Shown here: one piece after another, positions 14,252-55,727 of the stretch
How positions within the stretch are numbered: position 1 is the stretch's first letter
Layout of the letters: the number at the start of each line of letters is the position of its first letter
Virus record (IMG/VR): IMGVR_UViG_3300030117_002543
Coordinates: 1 to 57,228 of that record
DNA from: a virus
Taxonomy: Duplodnaviria > Caudoviricetes
Reading direction: 5' to 3' (one strand)
DNA: 57,228 nucleotides
Made by a program: the position numbers and the translations under genes
Notes under the pieces: model-generated
What the model saw: the letters and a program-made list of their open reading frames with translations, nothing else
Database searches by the model: none
Told to the model about the DNA's origin: nothing

Positions 14252-14923
14252 CTAGTAGTCCTTTATCATTGTTAGGACACCCCTGTAGACCATCTCCGAG
14301 TCGGATTTAGCACTTACAATATACTTGTGACAGGGTATTCCCTTGTCGTTTAACTTTTGCATTCCCTCTCTGAATGCGGCGAATATGGGATGTCCCTCTA
14401 TCGGCCCATCGTAGTCATACCTGTCTTTCCATAGGTCGTATTTATTGGCCCATATGGATACTGCAATCGGATAGTCTGCCTCTCTTTTCTTTTTCTTTTT
14501 CCCATTGTAATGCCAGTATGGTTCGCATATCGTATCAACTAAGAATGTCCAACACAACTGCTGTTCGATGTCATAGTGCTTGTTCATGTGCCTATCATCA
14601 ATCATAAATATGACATACTTGACTCTTCTTTCTTTCATGTCCTTAATCCACTCTTGCCAGTAGACTGTCTGTCCTCCTAAGTCAGCGGTCTTTACTGTGT
14701 GTGCATCTCCGTCTAGTTTGACGTATTTTCTAGATGCACGTTGCAATCCCTCTGTCCTATGTCGAATATCAGGAACCTCACCTCTTGTTCTCAACTGGTG
14801 ATTCAACGTTGTCTTTCCTGCTTGGCTTGCTCCGTATATTCCGAAGTTGATTGCGTGTATTCTCTGGTATATCTTGTTAAGTCCCTCGACTATCAATATG
14901 GCAAATCCTGCCATCACTGACAA
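14252..14923 (-). CDS. Ras-superfamily small GTPase, Arf/Sar-like
   Basis: G1 GASQAGKT, G2 Thr (HRTEG), G3 DLGGQ, G4 NKYD, G5 SAK; probable TTG start at 14923 after GGTGAT; N-terminal hydrophobic/amphipathic helix. Confidence 0.85.
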   Translation of the reverse strand: MSVMAGFAILIVEGLNKIYQRIHAINFGIYGASQAGKTTLNHQLRTRGEVPDIRHRTEGLQRASRKYVKLDGDAHTVKTADLGGQTVYWQEWIKDMKERRVKYVIFMIDDRHMNKHYDIEQQLCWTFLVDTICEPYWHYNGKKKKKREADYPIAVSIWANKYDLWKDRYDYDGPIEGHPIFAAFREGMQKLNDKGIPCHKYIVSAKSDSEMVYRGVLTMIKDY

Positions 14924-42829: not shown

Positions 42830-43140
42830 GAACTTCTACCTTTTGCATACTGGATAAAATCATTATACCATTGTTTTTCAGAAATTGTCACGGAATTTTT
42901 TTAGCACTTGCGCGATTTTATTTTTTTTGTTTATTCTATTTCCAGAATAAGCATTGTGTTGTTTTTAATTTCTTCTTGTTTAACTGCTTGATTCTTTTTC
43001 TCTGTAGTTTTTTACTTGTAAGTAAAAATTTGTATGTTTCTATTTGTATCAAAGGCTTTTTTTCAAGGATTTTATTCATTCTTGATTAAATTCACCATTC
43101 AAAATGCATAACAGAAAACAAATAGAAAAAAAAATTTGAA
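42830..43140. other. AT-rich non-coding spacer with T/A tracts
   Basis: Very low GC. The minus-strand T-run near 43115-43135 could terminate the upstream small-gene transcript. Confidence 0.5.
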
Positions 43141-43147
43141 AAGCAAA

Positions 43148-43168
43148 GCCATATGGTTGTGAACTTTG
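43148..43168. repeat. Dyad element copy 1 (partial)
   Basis: gCCATATGGT-tgtga-ACTTTG; left arm degenerate. Confidence 0.7.
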
Positions 43169-43271
43169 TTTCAACCCTGTTGAATCGGGCTAATAAGCCG
43201 TCATCGTCATCATTGCAATCATATGAACAGCGAAGCATATCACAATTACATTCAATACATCTTTATTCATT

Positions 43272-43445
43272 TTACATGCCCTCGTATCTGTCCTTTTCTG
43301 CTTGCAATGCTGATTTGAACCTGTCACGCTTGAAGTTCGCGTTTGTCTCTGATAATCTGACTATCATCCACTCTTCTTGAACCTCATCGAGGTTGAGTTC
43401 TGCCATCAGGCTAACCAACCAGTTGAAATGTCTCCTCTGAAACAT
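43272..43445 (-). CDS. 57-aa hypothetical protein
   Basis: Translated by hand: MFQRRHFNWLVSLMAELNLDEVQEEWMIVRLSETNANFKRDRFKSALQAEKDRYEGM; TAATG coupling. Confidence 0.7.
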   Translation of the reverse strand: MFQRRHFNWLVSLMAELNLDEVQEEWMIVRLSETNANFKRDRFKSALQAEKDRYEGM

Positions 43446-43627
43446 TAGTTCCCCTCCTTCTCATACTGCTTCTCATAACTCTCAACGTCTTCACAAGTAC
43501 AGTCAAGACCGCAGTTCTCACCCTCAAAACCACACTCCTCACAGTAGGCATCCTGAATTAGGCCAAGGTAAGCCCCGGTTATCTCCAAGGACTCGCCACA
43601 ACACTCACACTCCATATCGTAATACAT
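43445..43627 (-). CDS. Small Cys-rich acidic zinc-ribbon protein
   Basis: CECC...CEEC...CGLDCTC; leaderless ATG 22 nt downstream of CCCTATAAG box. Confidence 0.7.
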   Translation of the reverse strand: MYYDMECECCGESLEITGAYLGLIQDAYCEECGFEGENCGLDCTCEDVESYEKQYEKEGN

Positions 43628-43649
43628 CAACTAGGGGTATTCTCAACAT

Positions 43650-43700
43650 CTTATAGGGTGCGTTTACAAAGTTTACTTACCATATGGTAGTAGGACTTTG
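43650..43700 (-). promoter_or_regulatory. Dyad element copy 2 + TATA-like box
   Basis: CAAAGT(43667)-N6-ACCATATGGT(43679)-N6-ACTTTG(43700); minus-strand CCCTATAAG at 43658-43650. Confidence 0.8.
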
Positions 43701-43759
43701 GCTAACTACCTTGTATTTTTTAGGAACGTCTGGAAACAGTGGAAGCAATTTCATGTTTC

Positions 43760-44482
43760 GACGTTGGAGGGACTAGCATTACGGCGTGGAGTGTTCAACT
43801 AGTATTCTCCGCGTCTTACACCTAGTTATCGCATTGCGAGTAAGCAATCTTGTCGGGCCTTACCCCGGCTGGCTTCTTGTTTCCTTCAGTTCCTATAGGA
43901 ATCTGTCTGGTGTCTTGATAAGGGGTCTTCTCATGGTTCGTTACGGGGATTGCCGCCCCCTGAATGAGTTCGCGCTATCCCGGAGGACTCTCAAACTACT
44001 AATGCATGTACATCGACTTACCTTATCTAATGCCTAAGCGAAAGGACACCTCTCTCGCGTCTTTGTCTCTAACCCTCTCCCATGGGTATCAACAGCCAAC
44101 CTCTCTCTGTCGAGATTCAGAAGGCCGACATTCGGAATTAAAGGAGTGTGAAGGGAACGTCAGGAGTAGAGGACATCATCTCGGAGGTGTTGGGAAGGGA
44201 GTTCACTCAAGACCTCAACCTTCGACCAAGCGCACCTCTAGTGTCTTAGCATCCATCAGTTCCGTGTGGAATGTGATTGGTGGTAGCCGGGACTTATGTG
44301 TACCCGGAAGTTTCCTGTCCTCCTACATAATTGCAGAATTACCGAAACCGCCAATATTAGACTCGTTAGTGTCCTTTACAACGACTCCTATCTCTAGGTG
44401 TGATTGCCCCACGACAGGGAATATTGCACGTTACCCCGGAGGAGGGGTATTCCGTCACTACCGTACTAGTCCGTCAACTAGC
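43760..44482 (-). ncRNA. Candidate ~720-nt structured non-coding RNA
   Basis: Own dyad promoter; 5'/3' closing stem (44451-44478 with 43763-43790); nested long-range helices; no plausible sense ORF. Confidence 0.7.
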
Positions 44483-44503
44483 AATAAGGGCATGTATAAT
44501 TGT

Positions 44504-44551
44504 CTTATGAGGTGCGCATACAAAGTTTGCTTACCATATGGTTGTGCTTTG
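44504..44551 (-). promoter_or_regulatory. Dyad element copy 3 + TATA-like box
   Basis: CAAAGT(44521)-N6-ACCATATGGT(44533)-N3-GCTTTG; minus-strand CCTCATAAG 44512-44504. Confidence 0.8.
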
Positions 44552-44565
44552 CAGAACCCCTATTG

Positions 44566-44661
44566 GAACCAAGCCCCGAATGATATTCAGTGCGCCCCTC
44601 CTTGAATCCCATTGTTACAGGATGGGGGGCGGCGAATCACCTATCACCGGGGCTTGAGTTC
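44566..44661. ncRNA. ~95-nt imperfect long hairpin
   Basis: GAAC/GTTC, CAAGCCCCG/CGGGGCTTG, TGATA/TATCA, CGCCCC/GGGGCG, TCCT/AGGA. Confidence 0.5.
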
Positions 44662-44833
44662 ACTCTTCCGCGTAGCCGTCAAACCATTGACCACGTTTCT
44701 TCAAGTCTGAGCAAGTGCTACCGGATGTTTCCGGGTCTGAGCAATGCTCCCTAGCCTCTTCAAGAGTAAGTCCTCTCTTGATAACTCTGTCATTTCCTTC
44801 AAACCTGAATCGTATTATCTTGTATGTCGTCAT

Positions 44834-45079
44834 TTATTCTTCCTCCGTTTCTATTGCCACATTGTATAGTGGACCGGGACTTCTTCCCTGCGTACCGGGT
44901 TGGTATATGCCAACATCCATCAACCAGAAGACATATTCTATCCCGGTTTTTATCCCGTAGGCATCTTCTAGTTCCTCGTCGTTGGGGTCATCCCTTGCGA
45001 TTATCCCCTCGTTGACGGTTATGCACCTTCTCATCTCGGTCCTAAGCCACTCGTACTCTTTCTCGTTCAATGTATTCAT
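44834..45079 (-). CDS. Small acidic hypothetical protein
   Basis: Leaderless ATG 21 nt from CCTTAAGAG box. Confidence 0.7.
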   Translation of the reverse strand: MNTLNEKEYEWLRTEMRRCITVNEGIIARDDPNDEELEDAYGIKTGIEYVFWLMDVGIYQPGTQGRSPGPLYNVAIETEEE

Positions 45080-45100
45080 GCTAGGGTCTTGAATCACCAT

Positions 45101-45152
45101 CTCTTAAGGTAGCGTCTACAAAGTTGCACTACCATATGGTGGGAACGCTTTG
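45101..45152 (-). promoter_or_regulatory. Dyad element copy 4 + TATA-like box
   Basis: CAAAGT(45119)-N6-ACCATATGGT(45131)-N6-GCTTTG; minus-strand CCTTAAGAG 45109-45101. Confidence 0.8.
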
Positions 45153-45180
45153 GGGGACCACCTTGAGAAGTGGAAGGATT

Positions 45181-45576
45181 TTACTCCTCCTCACGACTCT
45201 TTGCGTGTTTCCTCTCAAAATCTCTCATCTTTGTTTCCTCCAATCGAACCAACCAGTTCTTGAACTCGCTGTTAAACTTCCTCTTGTCCCAAGTAGGGAC
45301 ATTGCAAGACCAATCGGCCTCAGCCAATCTCTCACAGAACTCAAGAGTCATAACGTCATAGAAATCTCCCATGTCGTATATCTCATTGGCTAGGTTGACC
45401 ATGAGCATTCTTCGCCTGAACTCAGCGGGAGTCATTTTTACTCCGTATCTATCACCAATGTGACCAACACCCGCTTGACTTGCCAGTATGCCAAAGCCGA
45501 AGCCGTTGACTAGTGAAATCTCTGTACTAGTGAAGCCCTTGTCAGGGCCGTTCTCGATTCCAACTATCAGAGGCAT
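45181..45576 (-). CDS. Hypothetical protein
   Basis: 131-aa ORF coupled TAATG to upstream gene. Confidence 0.7.
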   Translation of the reverse strand: MPLIVGIENGPDKGFTSTEISLVNGFGFGILASQAGVGHIGDRYGVKMTPAEFRRRMLMVNLANEIYDMGDFYDVMTLEFCERLAEADWSCNVPTWDKRKFNSEFKNWLVRLEETKMRDFERKHAKSREEE

Positions 45577-45758
45577 TAAAGGTTCATCTCCCTGAATGCG
45601 ACTAGAGCGGCTTTCAACTCTGCGAGTGATTCCGCTAGGTCATCACCACGAACTCTTAGGCTCTTGATGATAATCACGTGGTCTGAACCAGACTTGGAAT
45701 GTCCAACTTCCAGTTCGTACTTGTATGGCTTTATCATTTCTTTTGCTTCTGTTATCAT
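45576..45758 (-). CDS. Hypothetical protein
   Basis: 60 aa, ATGA coupling. Confidence 0.65.
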   Translation of the reverse strand: MITEAKEMIKPYKYELEVGHSKSGSDHVIIIKSLRVRGDDLAESLAELKAALVAFREMNL

Positions 45759-45991
45759 TCTTCTTCATCTCCTGTTAATATCATATCTTTCTTGTATTCG
45801 GCTAGAGTGACCCACTCGGTCTTAACGGTCAAGGACAATCGAATCATGCTTCCATAGACCTTTTCGGCAAATTCACCGAGGCTTTCCCAGTATTCAATCA
45901 GTTCTTCTTTGCTGTCGAAGTAGACAACGGTTCTCTTCTCTATTTCTCCACCTGCTCTGATGTAGGTGTCGTATTCAATCTCTGTTCTCAT
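45755..45991 (-). CDS. Hypothetical protein
   Basis: Leaderless ATG 20 nt from CCTCATAAG box. Confidence 0.7.
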   Translation of the reverse strand: MRTEIEYDTYIRAGGEIEKRTVVYFDSKEELIEYWESLGEFAEKVYGSMIRLSLTVKTEWVTLAEYKKDMILTGDEEE

Positions 45992-46011
45992 GTCCAACAG
46001 ATTTTTTCAGC

Positions 46012-46080
46012 CTTATGAGGGTACGCCGACAAAGTGTCTTACCATATGGTAGTACAACTTTGTAAGTGCTACCTCATAAG
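46012..46080. promoter_or_regulatory. Dyad element copy 5: bidirectional promoter
   Basis: CTTATGAGG-N9-CAAAGT-N5-ACCATATGGT-N6-ACTTTG-N9-CCTCATAAG between divergent genes. Confidence 0.85.
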
Positions 46081-46140
46081 ACTTAGTTCAGGCTCTTGGA
46101 TGTCGGGAAAGACACAAACTAACTAAGGAGAGAAAGAAAT

Positions 46141-46602
46141 ATGGCACAAATGGAAAATTGGAATGAATTTAAGGACACCGTGAACAGTTTCCTAAAGGGT
46201 GGTTCAGTCGATGAGATGACTGCTTCCACCGTTGGGGTACTCATCGGTAAAGGAGACAACAACATAACGACACAGACGAAGGTGACCTCGGCAATCAAGA
46301 CCATGCTAGAGGACTTCGATGGCGCACCAGTGGGCAGGGTATCCGCTCTAAACGGTGAGGCATTGACTACCTTCACTCAGGCAAGCGAGGCAATCAGGGC
46401 GGTTTCAACCGTCTTCGATTCTCACCCTGCACTAAAGGGACTCGTTCTTCCAAACGGGAGGAGCAAGATATCGCACTTCCCCGATGGTGATGCATGGGCA
46501 GACTTCTTGATTGGAGTCATGCGCAGACACGCAATCTCAGCAAGCAAGGCTGGCTGGGATGGCTCTGCCGACAGCCTAGTGGCTTTTCAGGAGGCTAACT
46601 AA
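46141..46602 (+). CDS. Hypothetical protein, paralog of 49244..49756
   Basis: 153 aa with AGGAG RBS; visible alignment to the 49244 protein. Confidence 0.8.
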   Translation: MAQMENWNEFKDTVNSFLKGGSVDEMTASTVGVLIGKGDNNITTQTKVTSAIKTMLEDFDGAPVGRVSALNGEALTTFTQASEAIRAVSTVFDSHPALKGLVLPNGRSKISHFPDGDAWADFLIGVMRRHAISASKAGWDGSADSLVAFQEAN

Positions 46603-46643
46603 GTCGGTGATGTTGTCTTCCCGGCACACATCAGGGTGAATGC

Positions 46644-46674
46644 CAAAGTCTCCCACCATATGGTAGCAACTTTT
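46644..46674. repeat. Dyad element copy 6
   Basis: CAAAGT-N5-ACCATATGGT-N4-ACTTTT. Confidence 0.75.
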
Positions 46675-48236: not shown

Positions 48237-48734
48237 ATGAATATATTTGTATTAAGCGAATGCCCAACAGAGAGTGCAGAGATGATGGTGGATAAACACG
48301 TAGTCAAGATGCCGACAGAGAGTATGCAGATGATGTGTACCATAGCGAATCTACATGACTACCAGACTCCATTTGCTCCGGTGATGTTGAATCACCCTTG
48401 CACTATTTGGGCGAGACAATCAAGACAGAACTTCAATTGGTTGCGAGAGCATACCCTTGCCCTTTGCAAGGAGTACACTCGCAGGTATGGTAAGCGACAC
48501 AAGGTAGAGTGGTGTCTCAAAGAGTATGATGCCACATGGATTACCTTGGAGTCCGAACTACCAGACATCGGATTGACACCCTTCGCGGTTGCGATATCCG
48601 ACCACATGAACTGTAGGCAACTAGACGGCTTTGACGATATGTCAGTTGTCGATAAGTATCGTGCGTACTACATGCACGACAAGAATCACTTCGCATCTTG
48701 GAAGACCAAGAAGCCAAGTTGGTTCACAGCGTAA
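48237..48734 (+). CDS. Pyrimidine dimer DNA glycosylase (T4 endonuclease V/DenV-like family)
   Basis: 'MNIFVL...DKHVVKM..ES.QM', 'NHPCTIWAR', 'LCKEYTRRYGKRH', 'YRAYY'. Confidence 0.8.
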   Translation: MNIFVLSECPTESAEMMVDKHVVKMPTESMQMMCTIANLHDYQTPFAPVMLNHPCTIWARQSRQNFNWLREHTLALCKEYTRRYGKRHKVEWCLKEYDATWITLESELPDIGLTPFAVAISDHMNCRQLDGFDDMSVVDKYRAYYMHDKNHFASWKTKKPSWFTA

Positions 48735-48743
48735 GACTCGCAA

Positions 48744-48844
48744 GAGCAGGGTTTGCCAAGTAAAAACGGGAAAGGTTTCTAATCATTGGAATAGTGTTCA
48801 ATTTTCTTTCTCTCTTCTGTAGCACGAACCCGTTCCCCCTGCTC
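48744..48844 (+). ncRNA. ~100-nt structured intergenic element
   Basis: GAGCAGGG/CCCTGCTC and AACGGG/CCCGTT stems; shares CAG[AG]GTTTGC-x-AAGTAAAA with 47702. Confidence 0.45.
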
Positions 48845-48932
48845 CATGGGGTCACCAGTGACCTCACCTATGTTTCCAAGAACTACCCGTTACACTGGAA
48901 AATAGAACAAATGAAATCTAGAGAGATAAAAG

Positions 48933-49241
48933 GTGAATAAAATGAATGGAATGATAGTTAAAACAATAGCAAGTGGAATAACATCCACATTACTGACATC
49001 AATGGTTGCAACGTGGTATCTCATCCAAGAGTTCCTTGGTGAGAGCATGGCAATGCAATTGATGATACCAGCATATGCATGGTCGTTGCTCACATTATGG
49101 GGTGACGAGATAAAGGATGTAATGAGAGGTAACAAGACAGTCGAGGAAGTTGTAGAAGAAGTCGTGGAGGACAACGTAGAGTTGGAACACTCTTGGGACT
49201 TCATCTCAAGACAACTACCAAGATATAACAAGGAGGAATAA
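48933..49241 (+). CDS. Small membrane protein
   Basis: Two hydrophobic segments and an acidic tail. Confidence 0.65.
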   Translation: MNKMNGMIVKTIASGITSTLLTSMVATWYLIQEFLGESMAMQLMIPAYAWSLLTLWGDEIKDVMRGNKTVEEVVEEVVEDNVELEHSWDFISRQLPRYNKEE

Positions 49242-49243
49242 GA

Positions 49244-49756
49244 ATGGCAGAAATGACAGATGAAAGATGGAATGCAATAAAAACGAAAATAGAACTGTGG
49301 TTCAACAACCATCAGGATTGGGAGTCAGAGCATATCGAACTGATATCGGTTCCCAACCTAGTCTCAGCAGGTGACAACAAGCCCGCGAAGAGAGTCGCAC
49401 TTTACAGTGCAATCAGGACTTGCTTCTCGGATATCGCTGACAAGCCCTTTACGACAGGGAAGAAGAGTGCGATGCCCGATGAGATTCAATCGTTCAGAGA
49501 TGGACAGTTGGAGTTGTTGAAGAAGGCACTGATGGAAGCGTGGGACAACTCCCCGCAGATGCAACAGTTGCTTGTCAGGAACAAGAGAAGCGGTGGTGGG
49601 TTCTTCACTTCCGCAGAGGACTACGCTCAGTCAGTAGTGGACTCAACGAGACTACGAATGAACACAGCGTACAATGCGTACTTGAGAAGTGACGATAAGG
49701 CCGATTATGTATGGAACGGCAAGGACAACATGGATTGTCAAATAAACAAGGAATGA
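49244..49756 (+). CDS. Hypothetical protein, paralog of 46141..46602
   Basis: 170 aa; GGAGG RBS. Confidence 0.8.
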   Translation: MAEMTDERWNAIKTKIELWFNNHQDWESEHIELISVPNLVSAGDNKPAKRVALYSAIRTCFSDIADKPFTTGKKSAMPDEIQSFRDGQLELLKKALMEAWDNSPQMQQLLVRNKRSGGGFFTSAEDYAQSVVDSTRLRMNTAYNAYLRSDDKADYVWNGKDNMDCQINKE

Positions 49757-49760
49757 GAAT

Positions 49761-49967
49761 ATGAATGAAGAAGAGAAACTATGGAAAGAAGAGGGAATAG
49801 TGTTGGTAGGAAGCACGATGCGTAACGCACCTGTGTTCCTCAACAAGAAGCAGTTGAACAAATTCAGTCGTGAGGACTTGAAGAGGTATCTTCTGGATGC
49901 GCTAGATGAACTGGTCGTTCTCCGTTACAGGAGAGGATTCAGTTGGTTGGATGAGGTGGTTGAATGA
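49761..49967 (+). CDS. Hypothetical protein
   Basis: 68 aa, coupled. Confidence 0.65.
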   Translation: MNEEEKLWKEEGIVLVGSTMRNAPVFLNKKQLNKFSREDLKRYLLDALDELVVLRYRRGFSWLDEVVE

Positions 49968-51823
49968 CTGATTGGAAGGAAGAAGTAGAAAATCAAGTCA
50001 AATACTGCCGTTATTGCCATGAACCTATTTTGCTTGTAGATTGGTTGAAGATACCAAGAAGTAAATCAACATGGTATAATTGGAAAACCTATGCTAAAGT
50101 ATGTATAGATGAGAAGCATGTTGAATGTGCTTCTAAATACAATGCAATGAAAAACAAGGCCAAAAAACCATTCTTTGACCGAGCGACAGCAGTTGCTAAG
50201 TTCCGTGCATTAAGAGAGGCACTAGGATTTGAGGAAGCAGACAGTGAGTCTACCTTTTCCCCATGGGACTTGGTTGAAGTCTCCATGATTAAAAACTTGG
50301 CAGGAGTTAACAGGGTAGTCCAAACACCAGAGCAACAGGTGTACAAAGACGCGATGTTGTATTTTTGGTCGGTTCAAGAGGACTACTTCAAGTATGAAAA
50401 CCGTGAGAAAACCAAGAAGGTATCTAGAGTCACAAAGAACTACGGTGAAGTGTTCCATGTTGATAATAAAATGCAGAATTTTAGTTCGACAAATCTTTGG
50501 TATTTGTATGCTGTTTTCAAGACGATGTTTCCCAATGAGTGGAAAGACGTACCTGTTTGGGCAATAAGTGGTAAGACTAGGGCATCTCTGTATCAATGGC
50601 AGATTATCGATGAATATCTTTGGAAGCGCGATGGTAAGTTGAATCATACCTTCCTCGCTGGTCTTTTCGATAAGATGATTGCAGAGTGGTATCCTGACGG
50701 TATCACATATCAGGATTATATTTCTCTCTCGGAACTCAATACCTACCAAACTAGGAAGCAGACGGATTCACCTTGGTTTCCAGCAAACGACTTGTTTAAC
50801 TACAAGCGTGGGCAAATGGCAGAGGAACCTGTCTTTATCAAAAGCGTGTGGACTTTTGTTTCCATGTTTCAAAGGCACTACAGTAGAAAGGAGAATGGAA
50901 CTTTCGATAAATTCATGTTCAATAAGATGGATTTCAAGGTTCATTCCAATGTATCAGGAAGACAGGGATATGATGCTGATGAGATAACAAAGGCAGATTG
51001 CTACAATTGGTTCTGGAACTATTTCGTGCCTTACTTCGGTATAGAGATAGAGGACAAGGAGAACTTCCCATATAACACACCAGTCAATGAATTGTTACAA
51101 TTCGTTAACATCCCGGTTCGTGATATGGGTCAAGTAGTTGGACTTTACAAGTTCATGGGAAAATTAGGTCAACCTAGAGGGGTTACTCCATCACCGGAGA
51201 AAGTGATTAGATTGCTATATCCGGACTATAAGTTCGACATGGTGCTATGGACAACAGAGGCTACAAAGGCTGAGAAGAAGATGAATCAGATTCTTCTGAA
51301 AGTAATGACACGTGCTGGCTTCGATTGGTATTTTAGTAATGCTGAGTACATACCAACAGAGGATGGGGACATCGCAAAATATTGGGATACTCAGGCTCCA
51401 ATGAAGATAGACGGCATAAGCCTACTACTCAAATTGATTGTGGAGGCCCAAGGCGCGTACCACTATCTCTTCGATGAGGAGGTAGTCTTTCTGAATGATG
51501 GTATTAACTACAGTAGGAAGGTTCCAGAGAGTTATCGAGGTAAGGATAGAACGGTACTTGGTTACAGACAGAACAGAGATAGACTTTGTAGGAAGGCCAT
51601 TGTTCGCAATGGATTTACTCCTGTGTATGTTATTCTCTATGAAGGAGCATATCCTGTAGAGGGAGTTCACGGTGACATACCACAATGGAACGGAACATAC
51701 GTTACATCAGATAGAAGCCGTGGTAGAATAGGACTTGCAGAGACATTCGACTTGCAAGGAAGGGAAGACATTGGTGATATGATTAGAGAGTATTACCGCA
51801 ACGTAATAGAAGAGGAGGAATGA
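49964..51823 (+). CDS. Large protein with C-terminal Vsr/DUF559-like PD-(D/E)xK endonuclease domain
   Basis: 'AEKKM...KIDG...LIVEAQGAYHY...RDRLCRKAIVRNGF'; N-terminal CxxC...C..H..C. Confidence 0.55.
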   Translation: MTDWKEEVENQVKYCRYCHEPILLVDWLKIPRSKSTWYNWKTYAKVCIDEKHVECASKYNAMKNKAKKPFFDRATAVAKFRALREALGFEEADSESTFSPWDLVEVSMIKNLAGVNRVVQTPEQQVYKDAMLYFWSVQEDYFKYENREKTKKVSRVTKNYGEVFHVDNKMQNFSSTNLWYLYAVFKTMFPNEWKDVPVWAISGKTRASLYQWQIIDEYLWKRDGKLNHTFLAGLFDKMIAEWYPDGITYQDYISLSELNTYQTRKQTDSPWFPANDLFNYKRGQMAEEPVFIKSVWTFVSMFQRHYSRKENGTFDKFMFNKMDFKVHSNVSGRQGYDADEITKADCYNWFWNYFVPYFGIEIEDKENFPYNTPVNELLQFVNIPVRDMGQVVGLYKFMGKLGQPRGVTPSPEKVIRLLYPDYKFDMVLWTTEATKAEKKMNQILLKVMTRAGFDWYFSNAEYIPTEDGDIAKYWDTQAPMKIDGISLLLKLIVEAQGAYHYLFDEEVVFLNDGINYSRKVPESYRGKDRTVLGYRQNRDRLCRKAIVRNGFTPVYVILYEGAYPVEGVHGDIPQWNGTYVTSDRSRGRIGLAETFDLQGREDIGDMIREYYRNVIEEEE

Positions 51824-53858: not shown

Positions 53859-55727
53859 ATGGAATTACAACAAGAAATATTGTCAGAAATAACAACGAAC
53901 ATGAAGTATGCAAAGTACTTGCCTCTTGAATTCAGGAGGGAATCTTGGAAAGAGATTGTAGAGAGGAACAAGGAAATGCACAAGAAGAAATTCACACACA
54001 TTCAAGGGTTTGACGAGAAGATAGATTATGTCTATGACAACTTCGTTCTAACCAAGAAAGTGCTACCATCCATGCGCTCCATGCAATTTGCAGGGAAGCC
54101 GATTGACTTGTCTCCGAACAGAATATACAACTGTGCGTACATGGCTATCGATTCTACGATAGCATTCTCGGAAGCCATGTTCCTGTTGCTGGGCGGCACA
54201 GGAGTTGGATACTCTGTTCAGAGACACCACGTATCAAAATTGGATGCAATACAGAAGCCTAATCCTGAGAGGACATACAGGCATCTAGTTGCGGATTCGA
54301 TAGAAGGATGGGCTGATGCAGTCAAGGTACTATTTGACGCATACACAGGAGACAGGAGAACAACGCCAAGGTTCGACTACTCCGACGTAAGACCGAAGGG
54401 CAGTCAATTGAAGACTAGTGGTGGTAAAGCACCCGGCCCTGCTCCATTGAAGAAGTGCATAGTTACCATAGAGAACATGCTACTGAACATGGAAGACGGT
54501 CATCACATTACACCAATCGAAGCACATGACATGATGTGCCACATCGCAGATGCAGTTCTCGCTGGTGGTATCAGAAGAGCCGCAATGATTAGTCTGTTCA
54601 ATGCAGATGATAACGAGATGATTAACTCAAAGAACGGTCACTATTGGGAGACCAATCCACAGAGAGCAAGAGCGAACAACTCAGCAGTTCTCATCAGAGA
54701 GAAGTGCGAGAAGGAGTTCTTCGATGACCTGTGGAATAGAACCAGAGCCAACAAGACTGGCGAGCCGGGTATATTCTTCTCCAATGACAAGGATTGGGGA
54801 ACGAACCCCTGTGCAGAGATTTCATTGAAGAACCATCAATTCTGTAATCTCTGCGAAATCAACGTATCCACTGTTGCTAGTCAGAAGGACTTGGAAGAGA
54901 GGGTGGAAGCCGCGACTATCATCGGAACGATGCAAGCGTGTTACACTGACTTCCATTATCTACGACAGTCTTGGAAGACCACAACAGAGAAGGAAGCACT
55001 TGTCGGTATCTCGATGACTGGCATCGCAAGCAATGCCCTCAAGGACTTGAATCTTGAGAGAGCATCAGATTGCGCAGTCATCGTCAACAAGACATATGCC
55101 GACATGTTCGGAATCAACTCAGCCGCAAGAGTTACTTGTGTGAAACCTGCTGGTACTACCAGTCTGGTGCTAGGCACTTCCTCCGGAATACATGCTTGGT
55201 ACTCCGAGTATTACATACGAAGAATCAGAGTGATGAAGAACGAGGCAATGTATCTGTATCTCAATGAGATGCTACCTGAGTTGGTGGAGGATGATGAGTG
55301 GGATGACAACCAAGCAATACTTGCTATCCCACAGAAAGCCCCGAAGGGTGACATCATCACAAGAGAGGAGTCTGCTCTATCCATGTTGGAGAGATTGAAG
55401 AAGTATTCAATCGAGTGGGTGAGAAGGGGACATATGAGTGGGGTCAACTCACACAATGTCTCTGCCACTGTCAACGTCAGAGATGACGAGTGGGAGACAG
55501 TGAAGGAATGGATGTGGGATAACAGAGAACACTACAACGGTATCTCTGTCCTGCCATTCGACAACGGTGTGTATACACAAGCACCGTTTGAGGCTATTGA
55601 GAAAGAACAATACGAGGATATGTTCGCCAAATTACAATCAATTGACCTAACACAGGTCAAGGAATACAATGATAATACCAATCTGCAAGGCGAAGTTGCT
55701 TGTGCAGGTGGTGCGTGTGAAATATAA
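53859..55727 (+). CDS. nrdJ: Class II (adenosylcobalamin-dependent) ribonucleotide reductase
   Basis: 'YNC', 'TNPCAEI' catalytic motif, 'VKPAGTTS', C-terminal redox pair 'ACAGGACEI'. Confidence 0.92.
   Translation: MELQQEILSEITTNMKYAKYLPLEFRRESWKEIVERNKEMHKKKFTHIQGFDEKIDYVYDNFVLTKKVLPSMRSMQFAGKPIDLSPNRIYNCAYMAIDSTIAFSEAMFLLLGGTGVGYSVQRHHVSKLDAIQKPNPERTYRHLVADSIEGWADAVKVLFDAYTGDRRTTPRFDYSDVRPKGSQLKTSGGKAPGPAPLKKCIVTIENMLLNMEDGHHITPIEAHDMMCHIADAVLAGGIRRAAMISLFNADDNEMINSKNGHYWETNPQRARANNSAVLIREKCEKEFFDDLWNRTRANKTGEPGIFFSNDKDWGTNPCAEISLKNHQFCNLCEINVSTVASQKDLEERVEAATIIGTMQACYTDFHYLRQSWKTTTEKEALVGISMTGIASNALKDLNLERASDCAVIVNKTYADMFGINSAARVTCVKPAGTTSLVLGTSSGIHAWYSEYYIRRIRVMKNEAMYLYLNEMLPELVEDDEWDDNQAILAIPQKAPKGDIITREESALSMLERLKKYSIEWVRRGHMSGVNSHNVSATVNVRDDEWETVKEWMWDNREHYNGISVLPFDNGVYTQAPFEAIEKEQYEDMFAKLQSIDLTQVKEYNDNTNLQGEVACAGGACEI

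What the first reader, a model, noticed from the sequence alone, without database searches (positions are those of the whole stretch)
43760..44482. Candidate ~720-nt large structured ncRNA with its own promoter
Seen on the minus strand: the start predicted from dyad copy 3 (~44482) coincides with a segment GTTGACGGACTAGTACGGTAGTG that pairs with CACGCCGTAATGCTAGTCCCTCCAAC about 700 nt away (43763-43788). Properly nested helices lie inside: ACACCTAG/CTAGGTGT (44401-44394 with 43825-43818), ATAGGAGTC/GATTCCTAT (44391-44383 with 43903-43895) and AAAGGACAC/GTGTCCTTT (44377-44369 with 44049-44041). Local hairpins include TACCCC-TCCTCC-GGGGTA and CCGGG...CCCGG. G-U pairs favour the minus strand and the ORF track has no minus-strand ORF here. 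Known: large phage ncRNAs such as GOLLD and ROOL are in this size range. I do not recognise this one, so it may be a new class in an archaeal virus.
Basis: partly seen in the sequence, partly recalled or inferred. Interest (0 to 1): 0.88.

Follow-up and report, generated by a model that had tools for sequence, protein, structure and literature searches.

The report
manA RNA gene in archaeal virus
The candidate new 720-base RNA is really a known structured RNA called manA followed by a loosely organised non-coding tail, but it sits as a stand-alone gene in a marine archaeal virus, which is a new setting for this RNA.

Summary
The four long-range helices exist at the stated coordinates, but they are no more than chance gives and relatives do not support them. 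The whole fold has z -0.37. H1 is matched by 26 of 300 shuffles. On six lineages only 1 of 47 pairs changes on both sides, and 342 of 500 shuffles do as well.

The 5' 207 nt (44483->44277, minus strand) is a full-length manA RNA: Rfam RF01745, 84.7 bits against a cut-off of 55.2. It starts 27 nt after a conserved TATA-like box beside a repeated operator dyad. That spacing matches the one that gives leaderless mRNAs at sister promoters.

Downstream lie a conserved 110-nt hairpin with 4 compensatory pairs, a 233-nt segment present in only one clade, and local 3' hairpins.

No ORF follows before the next promoter. The plus-strand ORF is open only in the window.

Portal and capsid proteins match only archaeal tailed viruses. 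Relatives have a split PolB, so the virus is magrovirus-like.

Verdict: a new member of a known family in a new host domain and gene context.

The parts
44503..44556 (-). Operator dyad and TATA-like promoter box. The dyad is CAAAG..ACCATATGGT..CTTTG with core CCATATGG at 44534-44541. The box CATAAGA runs 44509->44503. Predicted transcription start is G44482.
   Evidence: The element is repeated at 43680, 45132, 46042 (both directions) and 46656. It is nearly invariant in 10 related sequences, while the 14 nt between box and start vary in sequence but not in length. The box-to-ATG distance is 27-29 nt at three sister promoters. There is no sigma-70-like site here.
44277..44483 (-). manA RNA (Rfam RF01745), full length
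   Evidence: 84.7 bits against a gathering score of 55.2, model positions 1-192. It folds alone with z -2.34. On six lineages, 62 pairs are 99.5% paired and 11 pairs change on both sides, with 0 of 500 shuffles as high. An RNA-library contig covers 44286-44473 (run X20).
44154..44263 (-). E1: a conserved long imperfect hairpin directly 3' of manA, closed by GGAAC/GUUCC
   Evidence: It is the minimum-energy fold of the window sequence alone. 33 pairs are 98% paired and 4 pairs carry compensatory double changes in three lineages, with 1 of 500 shuffles as high. Sequence identity to relatives is 83-100%. Thermodynamic z is only -0.64.
43906..44138 (-). X: a 233-nt segment present in one clade only. 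It is flanked by the imperfect direct repeat CACACTCCTTTA / CAGATTCCTATA. It is non-coding and fast-evolving.
   Evidence: Present in the window, L011, L012 and L005=L015. Absent from L016, L017~L018 and L004=L013. Absent anywhere in the complete 98-kb relative. Identity among carriers is 78-87%, with internal indels. Fold z is +0.34 and +0.98. RNA-library contigs lie at 43908-44146 (depth 122.9), 43757-44126 (adapter at 44126) and 43937-44126.
43881..43901 (-). Small palindromic hairpin UUCCUAUAGGAA at the 3' edge of X
   Evidence: Alignment columns 586-606, 8 pairs, 95.8% paired, no double changes.
43772..43826 (-).
   Evidence: Columns 666-721: 13 pairs and two compensatory double changes. 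The window has A-U where four lineages have G-C, and L004 swaps U-A to A-U. Single-sequence energy is not significant, z -0.37.
43625..43700 (-). Next copy of the dyad and box (TATAAGA, 43655->43649). It drives a leaderless 61-aa Cys-rich ORF with ATG at 43627 and marks the end of the non-coding unit.
44006..44605 (+). Plus-strand 199-aa ORF: not a gene
   Evidence: No Pfam family. The frame is open only in the window. It is broken by 1-nt indels and the X indel in all 5 other lineages. It also runs across the promoter and antisense to manA.

Best explanation
The locus is a stand-alone non-coding RNA gene in the early region of a magrovirus-like marine archaeal tailed virus.

Transcription (inferred): an archaeal-type promoter, made of a TATA-like box next to a repeated operator dyad, starts transcription at about G44482.

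The 5' domain (shown): the first 207 nt fold on their own into the known manA RNA. This has a P1 hairpin and a multi-stem junction closed by GGUAG/CUACC.

The tail (shown as local structure): it is modular and locally folded, not wrapped around manA. It holds a conserved 110-nt hairpin (E1), a clade-specific 233-nt segment (X) and small 3' hairpins.

Function (inferred): no ORF belongs to this transcription unit, so manA here acts as an RNA in its own right and not as a 5' UTR switch. Going by the 2026 cryo-EM preprint, its likeliest molecular behaviour is self-assembly into closed homo-oligomers through loop-loop contacts. Early in infection this could act as a scaffold or as a sink for a host or viral factor.

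RNA-library contigs suggest that the manA body and the X part exist as separate pieces, which points to processing or separate ends.
For: Family membership and structure:
- manA membership. Relatives score 86.1 and 83.1 bits.
- Local structure with covariation: manA; E1; 3' hairpin.

Promoter and start:
- The box-to-start distance is 27-29 nt at three leaderless ORFs and at manA.
- The same dyad, box and spacing precede manA-like RNAs in two distant relatives: L099 at 54.3 bits and L100 at 41.9 bits.

No ORF in the unit:
- Window.
- L099 and L100.
- The 13-aa ORF after manA is frame-shifted by a 2-nt deletion in L016-L018.
- L099 has a T5 run directly after manA. L100 has a long hairpin plus T6 about 130 nt after it. 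Both were read from the sequence.

RNA libraries of 4 studies hold pieces:
- manA body at 44286-44473.
- X at 43908-44146, depth 122.9, with nothing else from 43000-45300 in that run.
- Two contigs end at 44126, one of them with an Illumina adapter attached.

Host and function:
- Archaeal virus: portal 10 of 10 and capsid 11 of 11 matching records are archaeal tailed viruses. PolB is split in G001 and G002. An RNR is present. This fits magrovirus group B as described in PMC5434244 (passages read).
- Self-assembly of manA RNAs: preprint 10.64898/2026.07.01.735769 (passages read).
Against: - No direct mapping of the start, the end or the strand. The RNA data are assembled contigs, which cannot show strand or true ends and may contain DNA.
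- One contig (X15, 43824-44314) bridges the manA 3' end, E1 and X. A long transcript is therefore not excluded.
- The window has no T-run of 4 or more between manA and the next promoter (read). Read-through into the downstream ORFs is possible.
- Thermodynamic support for E1, X and the 3' hairpin is nil: z -0.64, +0.34 and -0.37.
- The E1 and 3' structures were found with RNAalifold on the same six sequences used for counting.
- Oligomerisation was not tested for this sequence. It rests on an unreviewed preprint about other family members.
- The MCM Pfam family was not found in 0 of 3 records, although PMC5434244 says magroviruses encode MCM.
Confidence: 0.6

Rival explanations
1. manA is a cis-acting leader (riboswitch-like) of a long transcript. 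Transcription from 44482 reads through about 850 nt into the Cys-rich 61-aa ORF (ATG at 43627) and the genes after it, and the manA fold controls read-through or stability.
For: - Rfam and Weinberg 2010 (PMC2864571, passages read) class manA as probably cis-regulatory and commonly in 5' UTRs.
- The window shows no T-run or terminator between manA and the downstream ORFs.
- The RNA-library contig X15 is continuous over 43824-44314.
- In L099 a T5 run sits right after manA, where a termination switch would sit.
Against: - A complete, conserved copy of the promoter and operator lies between manA and that ORF and gives it a leaderless start.
- The distance is 850 nt and varies by 233 nt between clades.
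- In L099 and L100 the next unit also has its own dyad promoter.
- In 3 of 4 RNA runs the pieces are separate and E1 is not covered.
Confidence: 0.17
2. One reading: one ~720-nt structured RNA whose 5' end pairs with a segment 700 nt away and encloses nested long-range helices. This would be a new large ncRNA class.
For: - The helices exist in the window, and the minimum-energy fold of the 723 nt uses the closing helix.
- In L017 and L018 the core of H1 stays perfect through changes on both sides (1 pair).
- Contig X15 bridges much of the region.
Against: - Fold z is -0.37.
- H1 is matched by 26 of 300 shuffles, and 8-bp helices are at chance level.
- 91.8% of cells are paired against a shuffled mean of 91.9%. 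One double change is seen, and 342 of 500 shuffles do as well.
- H1 has an A-C mismatch in three lineages and is broken in L004.
- P1 covaries locally instead.
- The distal arms of H1 and H2 covary with each other.
- H4's partner lies in X, which three lineages lack.
- The 5' part is a known independent fold.
Confidence: 0.05
3. Only manA is functional. Everything from 44276 to 43700 is a decaying spacer or the remnant of a lost gene, and the RNA contigs reflect read-through or DNA carry-over.
For: - X is poorly conserved (78-87%), holds indels of 11 and 30 nt and is dispensable.
- There is no thermodynamic signal.
- There is no Rfam match at E up to 10 apart from two noise hits.
- 0 of 47 related records have a DNA match.
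Against: - E1 is 83-100% identical across lineages, which is more conserved than the variable stems of manA.
- E1 shows 4 compensatory double changes, and the 3' hairpin shows 2.
- The X17 contig, at depth 122.9, is confined to X. This is not what DNA carry-over or even read-through would give.
Confidence: 0.15

Closest known systems
manA RNA motif (Rfam RF01745; Weinberg et al. 2010, PMC2864571)
   Same: - Full-length match above the gathering score (84.7 bits).
- Same P1 hairpin, closing helix/pseudoknot strands and multi-stem junction.
- Marine origin.
   Different: - The carrier is an archaeal-type tailed virus, not a cyanophage or gamma-proteobacterium.
- It starts at the predicted transcription start of its own promoter, and no ORF follows in the unit.
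- One stem (model positions ~80-100) is replaced by a longer, invariant helix capped by a GAGA loop.
- It carries a conserved 3' hairpin extension.
Self-assembling manA RNAs (preprint 10.64898/2026.07.01.735769; passages read)
   Same: Same Rfam family. Several hairpin loops are available for loop-loop contacts. A GNRA-type loop (GAGA) is present. The UCCUCC loop has a perfect complement, GGAGGA, 120 nt downstream (read).
   Different: Assembly was not tested for this sequence. The interfaces named in the preprint (L5-L7', L8-L9', L3-L8', L6-P6') could not be mapped because its figures and supplements are not held. Here the RNA may carry a long 3' tail.
GOLLD and ROOL large phage ncRNAs
   Same: Virus-borne, non-coding, and several hundred nt if the tail is counted. 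According to the preprint's introduction, they also form RNA-only multimers.
   Different: No Rfam match to either family. There is no single large conserved fold. Only the 207-nt manA and the 110-nt E1 show conserved structure.
Magroviruses, group B (Philosof et al. 2017, PMC5434244; passages read)
   Same: - Capsid and portal resemble only those of archaeal tailed viruses such as the Haloarcula siphoviruses.
- About 98-kb genome (G001).
- Split family-B DNA polymerase.
- Ribonucleotide reductase.
   Different: The MCM Pfam family was not detected in 0 of 3 records. No host link such as a CRISPR spacer or tRNA match was tested. No paper in the held library mentions both magrovirus and Rfam.

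Membership tests
manA RNA (RF01745) | Covariance-model score at or above Rfam's gathering score over the whole model | tested here: met
   84.7 bits against 55.2, model positions 1-192 of 192, E 3.4e-20. Relatives score 86.1 and 83.1 bits.
manA RNA (RF01745) | Conserved secondary structure kept through compensatory changes | tested here: met
   62 pairs, 99.5% of cells paired. 11 pairs change on both sides, with 0 of 500 shuffles as high. Slid controls give 33-45% paired. The structure came from RNAalifold on the same six sequences, but it agrees with the Rfam alignment.
manA RNA (RF01745) | Closing helix/pseudoknot strands (model [[[[[ ... ]]]]]) | tested here: met
   GGUAG (44462-44458) pairs with CUACC (44285-44281). 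All 5 pairs are present and invariant in 6 of 6 lineages, so they say nothing on covariation.
manA RNA (RF01745) | Position in the 5' UTR of a protein-coding gene (the basis of the 'cis-regulatory' label) | tested here: not met
   There is no minus-strand ORF of 30 aa or more between 44276 and the next promoter at ~43655. The 13-aa ORF is not conserved in frame. The same holds in L099 and L100. This is a typical context and not a structural criterion, so membership stands.
manA RNA (RF01745) | Homo-oligomer formation (preprint, 2026) | not testable with these tools
   Needs in-vitro transcription with SEC or cryo-EM.
GOLLD / ROOL / other large Rfam ncRNAs | Match to the family covariance model | tested here: not met
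   No match in the whole window at gathering scores. None in 43000-45200 at E up to 1. None in 43740-44280 at E up to 10, apart from two noise hits of 12-14 bits.
Archaeal bulge-helix-bulge intron (considered for X) | Two 3-nt bulges 4 bp apart, formed by the two junctions | tested here: not met
   A brute-force search of 70 nt around each junction found 0 candidates. The search was crude and relaxed motifs were not covered.
Magrovirus group B (virus assignment) | Halovirus-like capsid and portal, split PolB and RNR | tested here: met
   only archaeal tailed viruses matched; PolB in two pieces in G001 and G002; RNR. MCM was not found, so the full replisome set is not confirmed.

The most novel reading that the evidence does not exclude
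manA is not a riboswitch at all. It is a stand-alone, self-assembling viral RNA shared by viruses of bacteria and of archaea. In these magrovirus-like viruses it is made from an operator-controlled early promoter as the head of a processed precursor. That precursor also yields a second abundant small RNA (X, about 240-370 nt) of no known family. The virus would thus make an RNA-only cage or scaffold during infection of Poseidoniales archaea.
Probability: 0.25. Interest if true: 0.75.

Novelty: new member of a known kind. Interest (0 to 1): 0.45.

Why it matters
manA has been an orphan riboswitch candidate since 2010. In 2026 it was reported to build 60-subunit RNA cages in vitro, with no known biological role.

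This locus gives that RNA a clean genetic context:
- It has its own conserved, operator-linked promoter.
- No gene follows it.
- The same arrangement recurs in three separate lineages.

This argues that manA works as an RNA in trans. It also places the family in viruses of a second domain of life. The virus's RNR is most similar to those of bacterial phages, 57.7% to a Microcystis phage. That would fit gene flow between cyanophages and these archaeal viruses, although this is inference only.

The locus also offers natural variants, with and without X and with diverged peripheral stems, for structural work.

Tried and rejected
Leads that went nowhere:
- DNA similarity of 43600-44600 to 50,697 phage records: no match.
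- Pfam and PHROGs on neighbouring large ORFs: mostly no families.
- tRNA/tmRNA scan of the window: none.
- Viral-contig scans with an X 26-mer and a manA pattern returned only the two relatives already known.
- Scans of species-representative genomes with the manA-subtype pattern and an X pattern: 0 and 0. These need exact matches, so they are weak evidence of absence.
- The bacterial-type promoter and terminator scan found nothing at the dyad promoters. It found one terminator-like site inside X, at chance level: 1 against a mean of 1.4.
- X as a BHB intron: no motif.
- X with its own promoter: the TTTAAT at 44142-44137 lies only 16 nt from the contig end at 44126, not the 27 nt seen at the real promoters. 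Rejected.
- The 13-aa ORF MDAKTLEVRLVEG after manA: rejected as coding. L016-L018 shift its frame, and its variable positions are the ones compensated in the E1 hairpin.

RNA-run caveats:
- Parts without cover in the RNA runs are holes in contig data and prove nothing. E1 is uncovered in X17, X18 and X20, and manA in X17 and X18.
- The match between the X17 contig ends and the X indel borders could also come from assembly-graph branching between strains with and without X.

My own slips:
- My coordinates for L017 were wrong and covered the manA 3' part. That row is not used.
- My first reading of alignment A1, that H3's partner is deleted in L004, depended on the alignment. In A2 the partner is kept with mismatches.

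What I could not see:
- Supplements are closed. Weinberg 2010 Additional files 1-3 (gene contexts of all manA hits), S-CREM1 Table S7 and the preprint's Figures S13-S17 could show whether ORF-less or archaeal-virus manA copies were already noted. I could not read them.
- Literature searches for manA together with archaeal viruses or magroviruses found nothing relevant (one search lists all 10 papers that name the motif).

Full report
**What the window is**

The window is a 57,228-base IMG/VR virus record, estimated 60% complete.
- Its portal protein matches only archaeal tailed viruses in the phage collection: 10 of 10 records, from Haloarcula siphoviruses and a Methanomassiliicoccales virus.
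- Its major capsid protein does the same, in 11 of 11 records.
- The large terminase and the ribonucleotide reductase have bacterial-phage relatives.
- Two close relatives were found. G001 is 98,438 bases and estimated 100% complete. G002 is 58,459 bases.
- Both relatives carry a family-B DNA polymerase in two separate pieces.
- The MCM Pfam family was not found in any of the three records.

Halovirus-like capsid and portal, a split PolB and an RNR are the traits that Philosof et al. give for magrovirus group B (PMC5434244, passages read). I call the virus magrovirus-like. No host link was tested. The DNA is held by marine metagenome runs of several studies.

**Checking the observation**

The four long-range helices are literally present, but they are no better than chance.
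- The 723-nt fold has z -0.37 on the minus strand and -0.64 on the plus strand.
- The closing duplex H1 (-25.4 kcal/mol) is equalled in 26 of 300 shuffles of the downstream sequence.
- The count of 8-bp helices is 67, within the 63-95 seen in 10 shuffles.

**What the 5' part is**

Rfam finds one family in the whole window: manA (RF01745) at 44483->44277 on the minus strand. It scores 84.7 bits against a gathering score of 55.2, over the full model. This 207-nt piece folds alone with z -2.34. Its minimum-energy structure reproduces the model's P1 hairpin, its closing helix and its stems.

**Relatives and the test of the long-range model**

Protein-anchored and pattern scans gave two IMG/VR relatives and eight metagenome loci. 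After removing duplicates and truncated loci, six distinct lineages cover the whole region (alignment A2). I counted base pairs on A2 for two models.

| Model | Pairs | Cells paired | Shuffled mean | Pairs changed on both sides | Shuffles as high |
|---|---|---|---|---|---|
| manA, local | 62 | 99.5% | 94.7% | 11 | 0 of 500 |
| E1 hairpin (44263->44154) | 33 | 98.0% | 95.4% | 4 | 1 of 500 |

In the long-range model, most departures are broken pairs.

Three details decide against it:
The pairs are GCUAG/CUAGU in the window, GUCAG/CUGGC in L017 and GUCAG/CUGAC in L004.
One of these is the window-specific G-C to A-U change that made H1 and H2 look perfect in the window.
- H4's partner lies in a segment that three lineages lack.

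One caveat applies. The local structures outside manA were derived with RNAalifold on the same alignment. For E1, however, the same fold is the minimum-energy structure of the window sequence alone.

**The promoter**

A dyad (CAAAG..ACCATATGGT..CTTTG) with a following (C/T)ATAAGA or CTTAAGA box recurs at 43680, 44534, 45132 and 46042 (both directions), and partly at 46656.
- At three copies, the first base of the box lies 27-29 nt before an ATG that opens an ORF. This implies leaderless mRNAs.
- At the manA copy, the box (44509->44503) lies 27 nt before model position 1-2 (44483/44482).
- Across ten related sequences the dyad and box are nearly invariant. The 14 nt between box and start vary in sequence but never in length.
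- No sigma-70-like site fits these places.

This geometry is what established knowledge of archaeal TATA-box promoters predicts. The assignment is inference, since no transcript ends were mapped.

**What follows manA**

There is no minus-strand ORF of 30 aa or more before the next promoter copy. A 13-codon ORF just after manA changes frame in L016-L018. The plus-strand 199-aa ORF has no Pfam family and is open only in the window.

The 233-nt segment X (44138->43906) has these properties:
- It is present in the window's clade: window, L011, L012 and L005=L015.
- It is absent from L016, L017~L018 and L004=L013. It is absent anywhere in the complete genome G001.
- An imperfect 12-nt direct repeat flanks it.
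- It is the least conserved part, at 78-87% identity with internal indels.
- It has no folding signal and no Rfam match.

**RNA evidence**

Six metatranscriptome runs hold part of the stretch. Four of them, from four studies, were laid. The data are assembled contigs, so strand and level are not shown.

| Run | Contig(s) laid | Depth | Note |
|---|---|---|---|
| X20 | 44286-44473 | 12.7 | the manA body |
| X20 | 43937-44126 | 3.3 | within X |
| X17 | 43908-44146 | 122.9 | identical to the window; nothing else from 43000-45300 |
| X18 | 43757-44126 | 9.3 | read-1 Illumina adapter joined at 44126 |
| X15 | 43824-44314 | 6.8 | continuous; also covers neighbouring genes at similar depth |

The region is therefore represented in RNA libraries. 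The manA body and X tend to appear as separate pieces, and two studies share an end at 44126. The X17 contig ends coincide with the X indel borders. Assembly branching between strains could also cause that.

**Distribution**

- Among 43 other records of this virus group (portal 71-99% identical), RF01745 matched in 2, both just below the gathering score (54.3 and 41.9 bits). It matched in 0 of 8 records that are at least 90% complete.
- The E1-X-3' DNA matched 0 of 47 such records. The same kind of search did find it in G000-G002.

The cassette is thus an accessory element of a narrow lineage within a hypervariable early region.

The two distant manA-like copies are informative. Each starts 28-29 nt after the same kind of dyad and box.
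- In L099 a T5 run follows manA at once.
- In L100 a long hairpin and a T6 run follow about 130 nt later.
- In both, the next thing is another dyad promoter, with no ORF in between.

**Interpretation**

This is a member of the manA family in a new setting. It sits in an archaeal-type virus, is placed exactly at a predicted transcription start, has its own regulated promoter, has no coding sequence in its unit, and carries a lineage-specific structured tail.

That context argues against the long-standing 5' UTR riboswitch reading (Weinberg 2010, PMC2864571, passages read), at least here. It fits the 2026 preprint's finding that manA RNAs assemble into closed oligomers through kissing loops and a GNRA contact. 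The preprint is unreviewed, and I read only passages. Its figures and supplements were not available.

The long-range 720-nt architecture and the claim of a new class are not supported.

Noticed in passing
window 43149-46663: A palindromic operator-like dyad (core CCATATGG inside CAAAG..CTTTG arms) recurs six times in the early region and once at 14450. It is usually followed by a (C/T)ATAAGA or CTTAAGA box that lies 27-29 nt before a leaderless ATG. It probably marks a regulon of early promoters under one virus-encoded DNA-binding protein.
   Followed up: partly
window 43906-44146: One metatranscriptome run (X17) has a single 241-nt contig at depth 122.9 that is identical to X, with nothing else from the surrounding 2.3 kb. 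Two other studies have contigs ending at 44126, one with an adapter attached. This is a possible discrete abundant small RNA of no known family.
   Followed up: partly
window 44443-44438 and 44323-44318 (alignment A2 columns 41-46 and 162-167): The manA hairpin loop UCCUCC has a perfect 6-nt complement, GGAGGA, 120 nt downstream. In L017 and L004 the pair becomes CCACC/GGUG, with column 44:164 changing U-A to A-U. L016 breaks it. It could be a tertiary or intermolecular kissing contact, but column 164 also covaries with column 147 inside a stem.
   Followed up: partly
window 44419-44379: A 41-nt block inside manA is invariant in all 10 related sequences, although the neighbouring stems vary. 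It runs CCCUGUCGUGGGGCAAUCACACCUAGAGAUAGGAGUCGUUG and includes a GNRA-type GAGA loop. It replaces a shorter stem of the Rfam consensus.
   Followed up: no
window 43445-43630 (minus strand): A 61-aa Cys-rich, acidic ORF with several CxxC-like pairs, possibly a small zinc-binding protein. It is conserved in the relatives and is predicted to be leaderless.
   Followed up: no
window 53859-55727: The ribonucleotide reductase is closest to those of bacterial phages (57.7% to Microcystis phage Mel-JY01, 56.7% to an Oceanospirillum phage), although the structural genes are of archaeal-virus type. This hints at gene exchange with phages of marine bacteria, the known carriers of manA.
   Followed up: no
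G001 70915-72482 and G002 48390-50508: The family-B DNA polymerase matches in two pieces about 600-1200 bases apart, with a stop codon between or within them. This looks like the split PolB described for magrovirus group B.
   Followed up: no
L003/L004 (G001 contig ends): In the 98,438-base relative, the manA cassette lies about 900 bases from one contig end and the neighbouring 392-aa gene about 700 bases from the other end. The assembly is therefore circularly permuted, or the genome ends fall in this early region.
   Followed up: no
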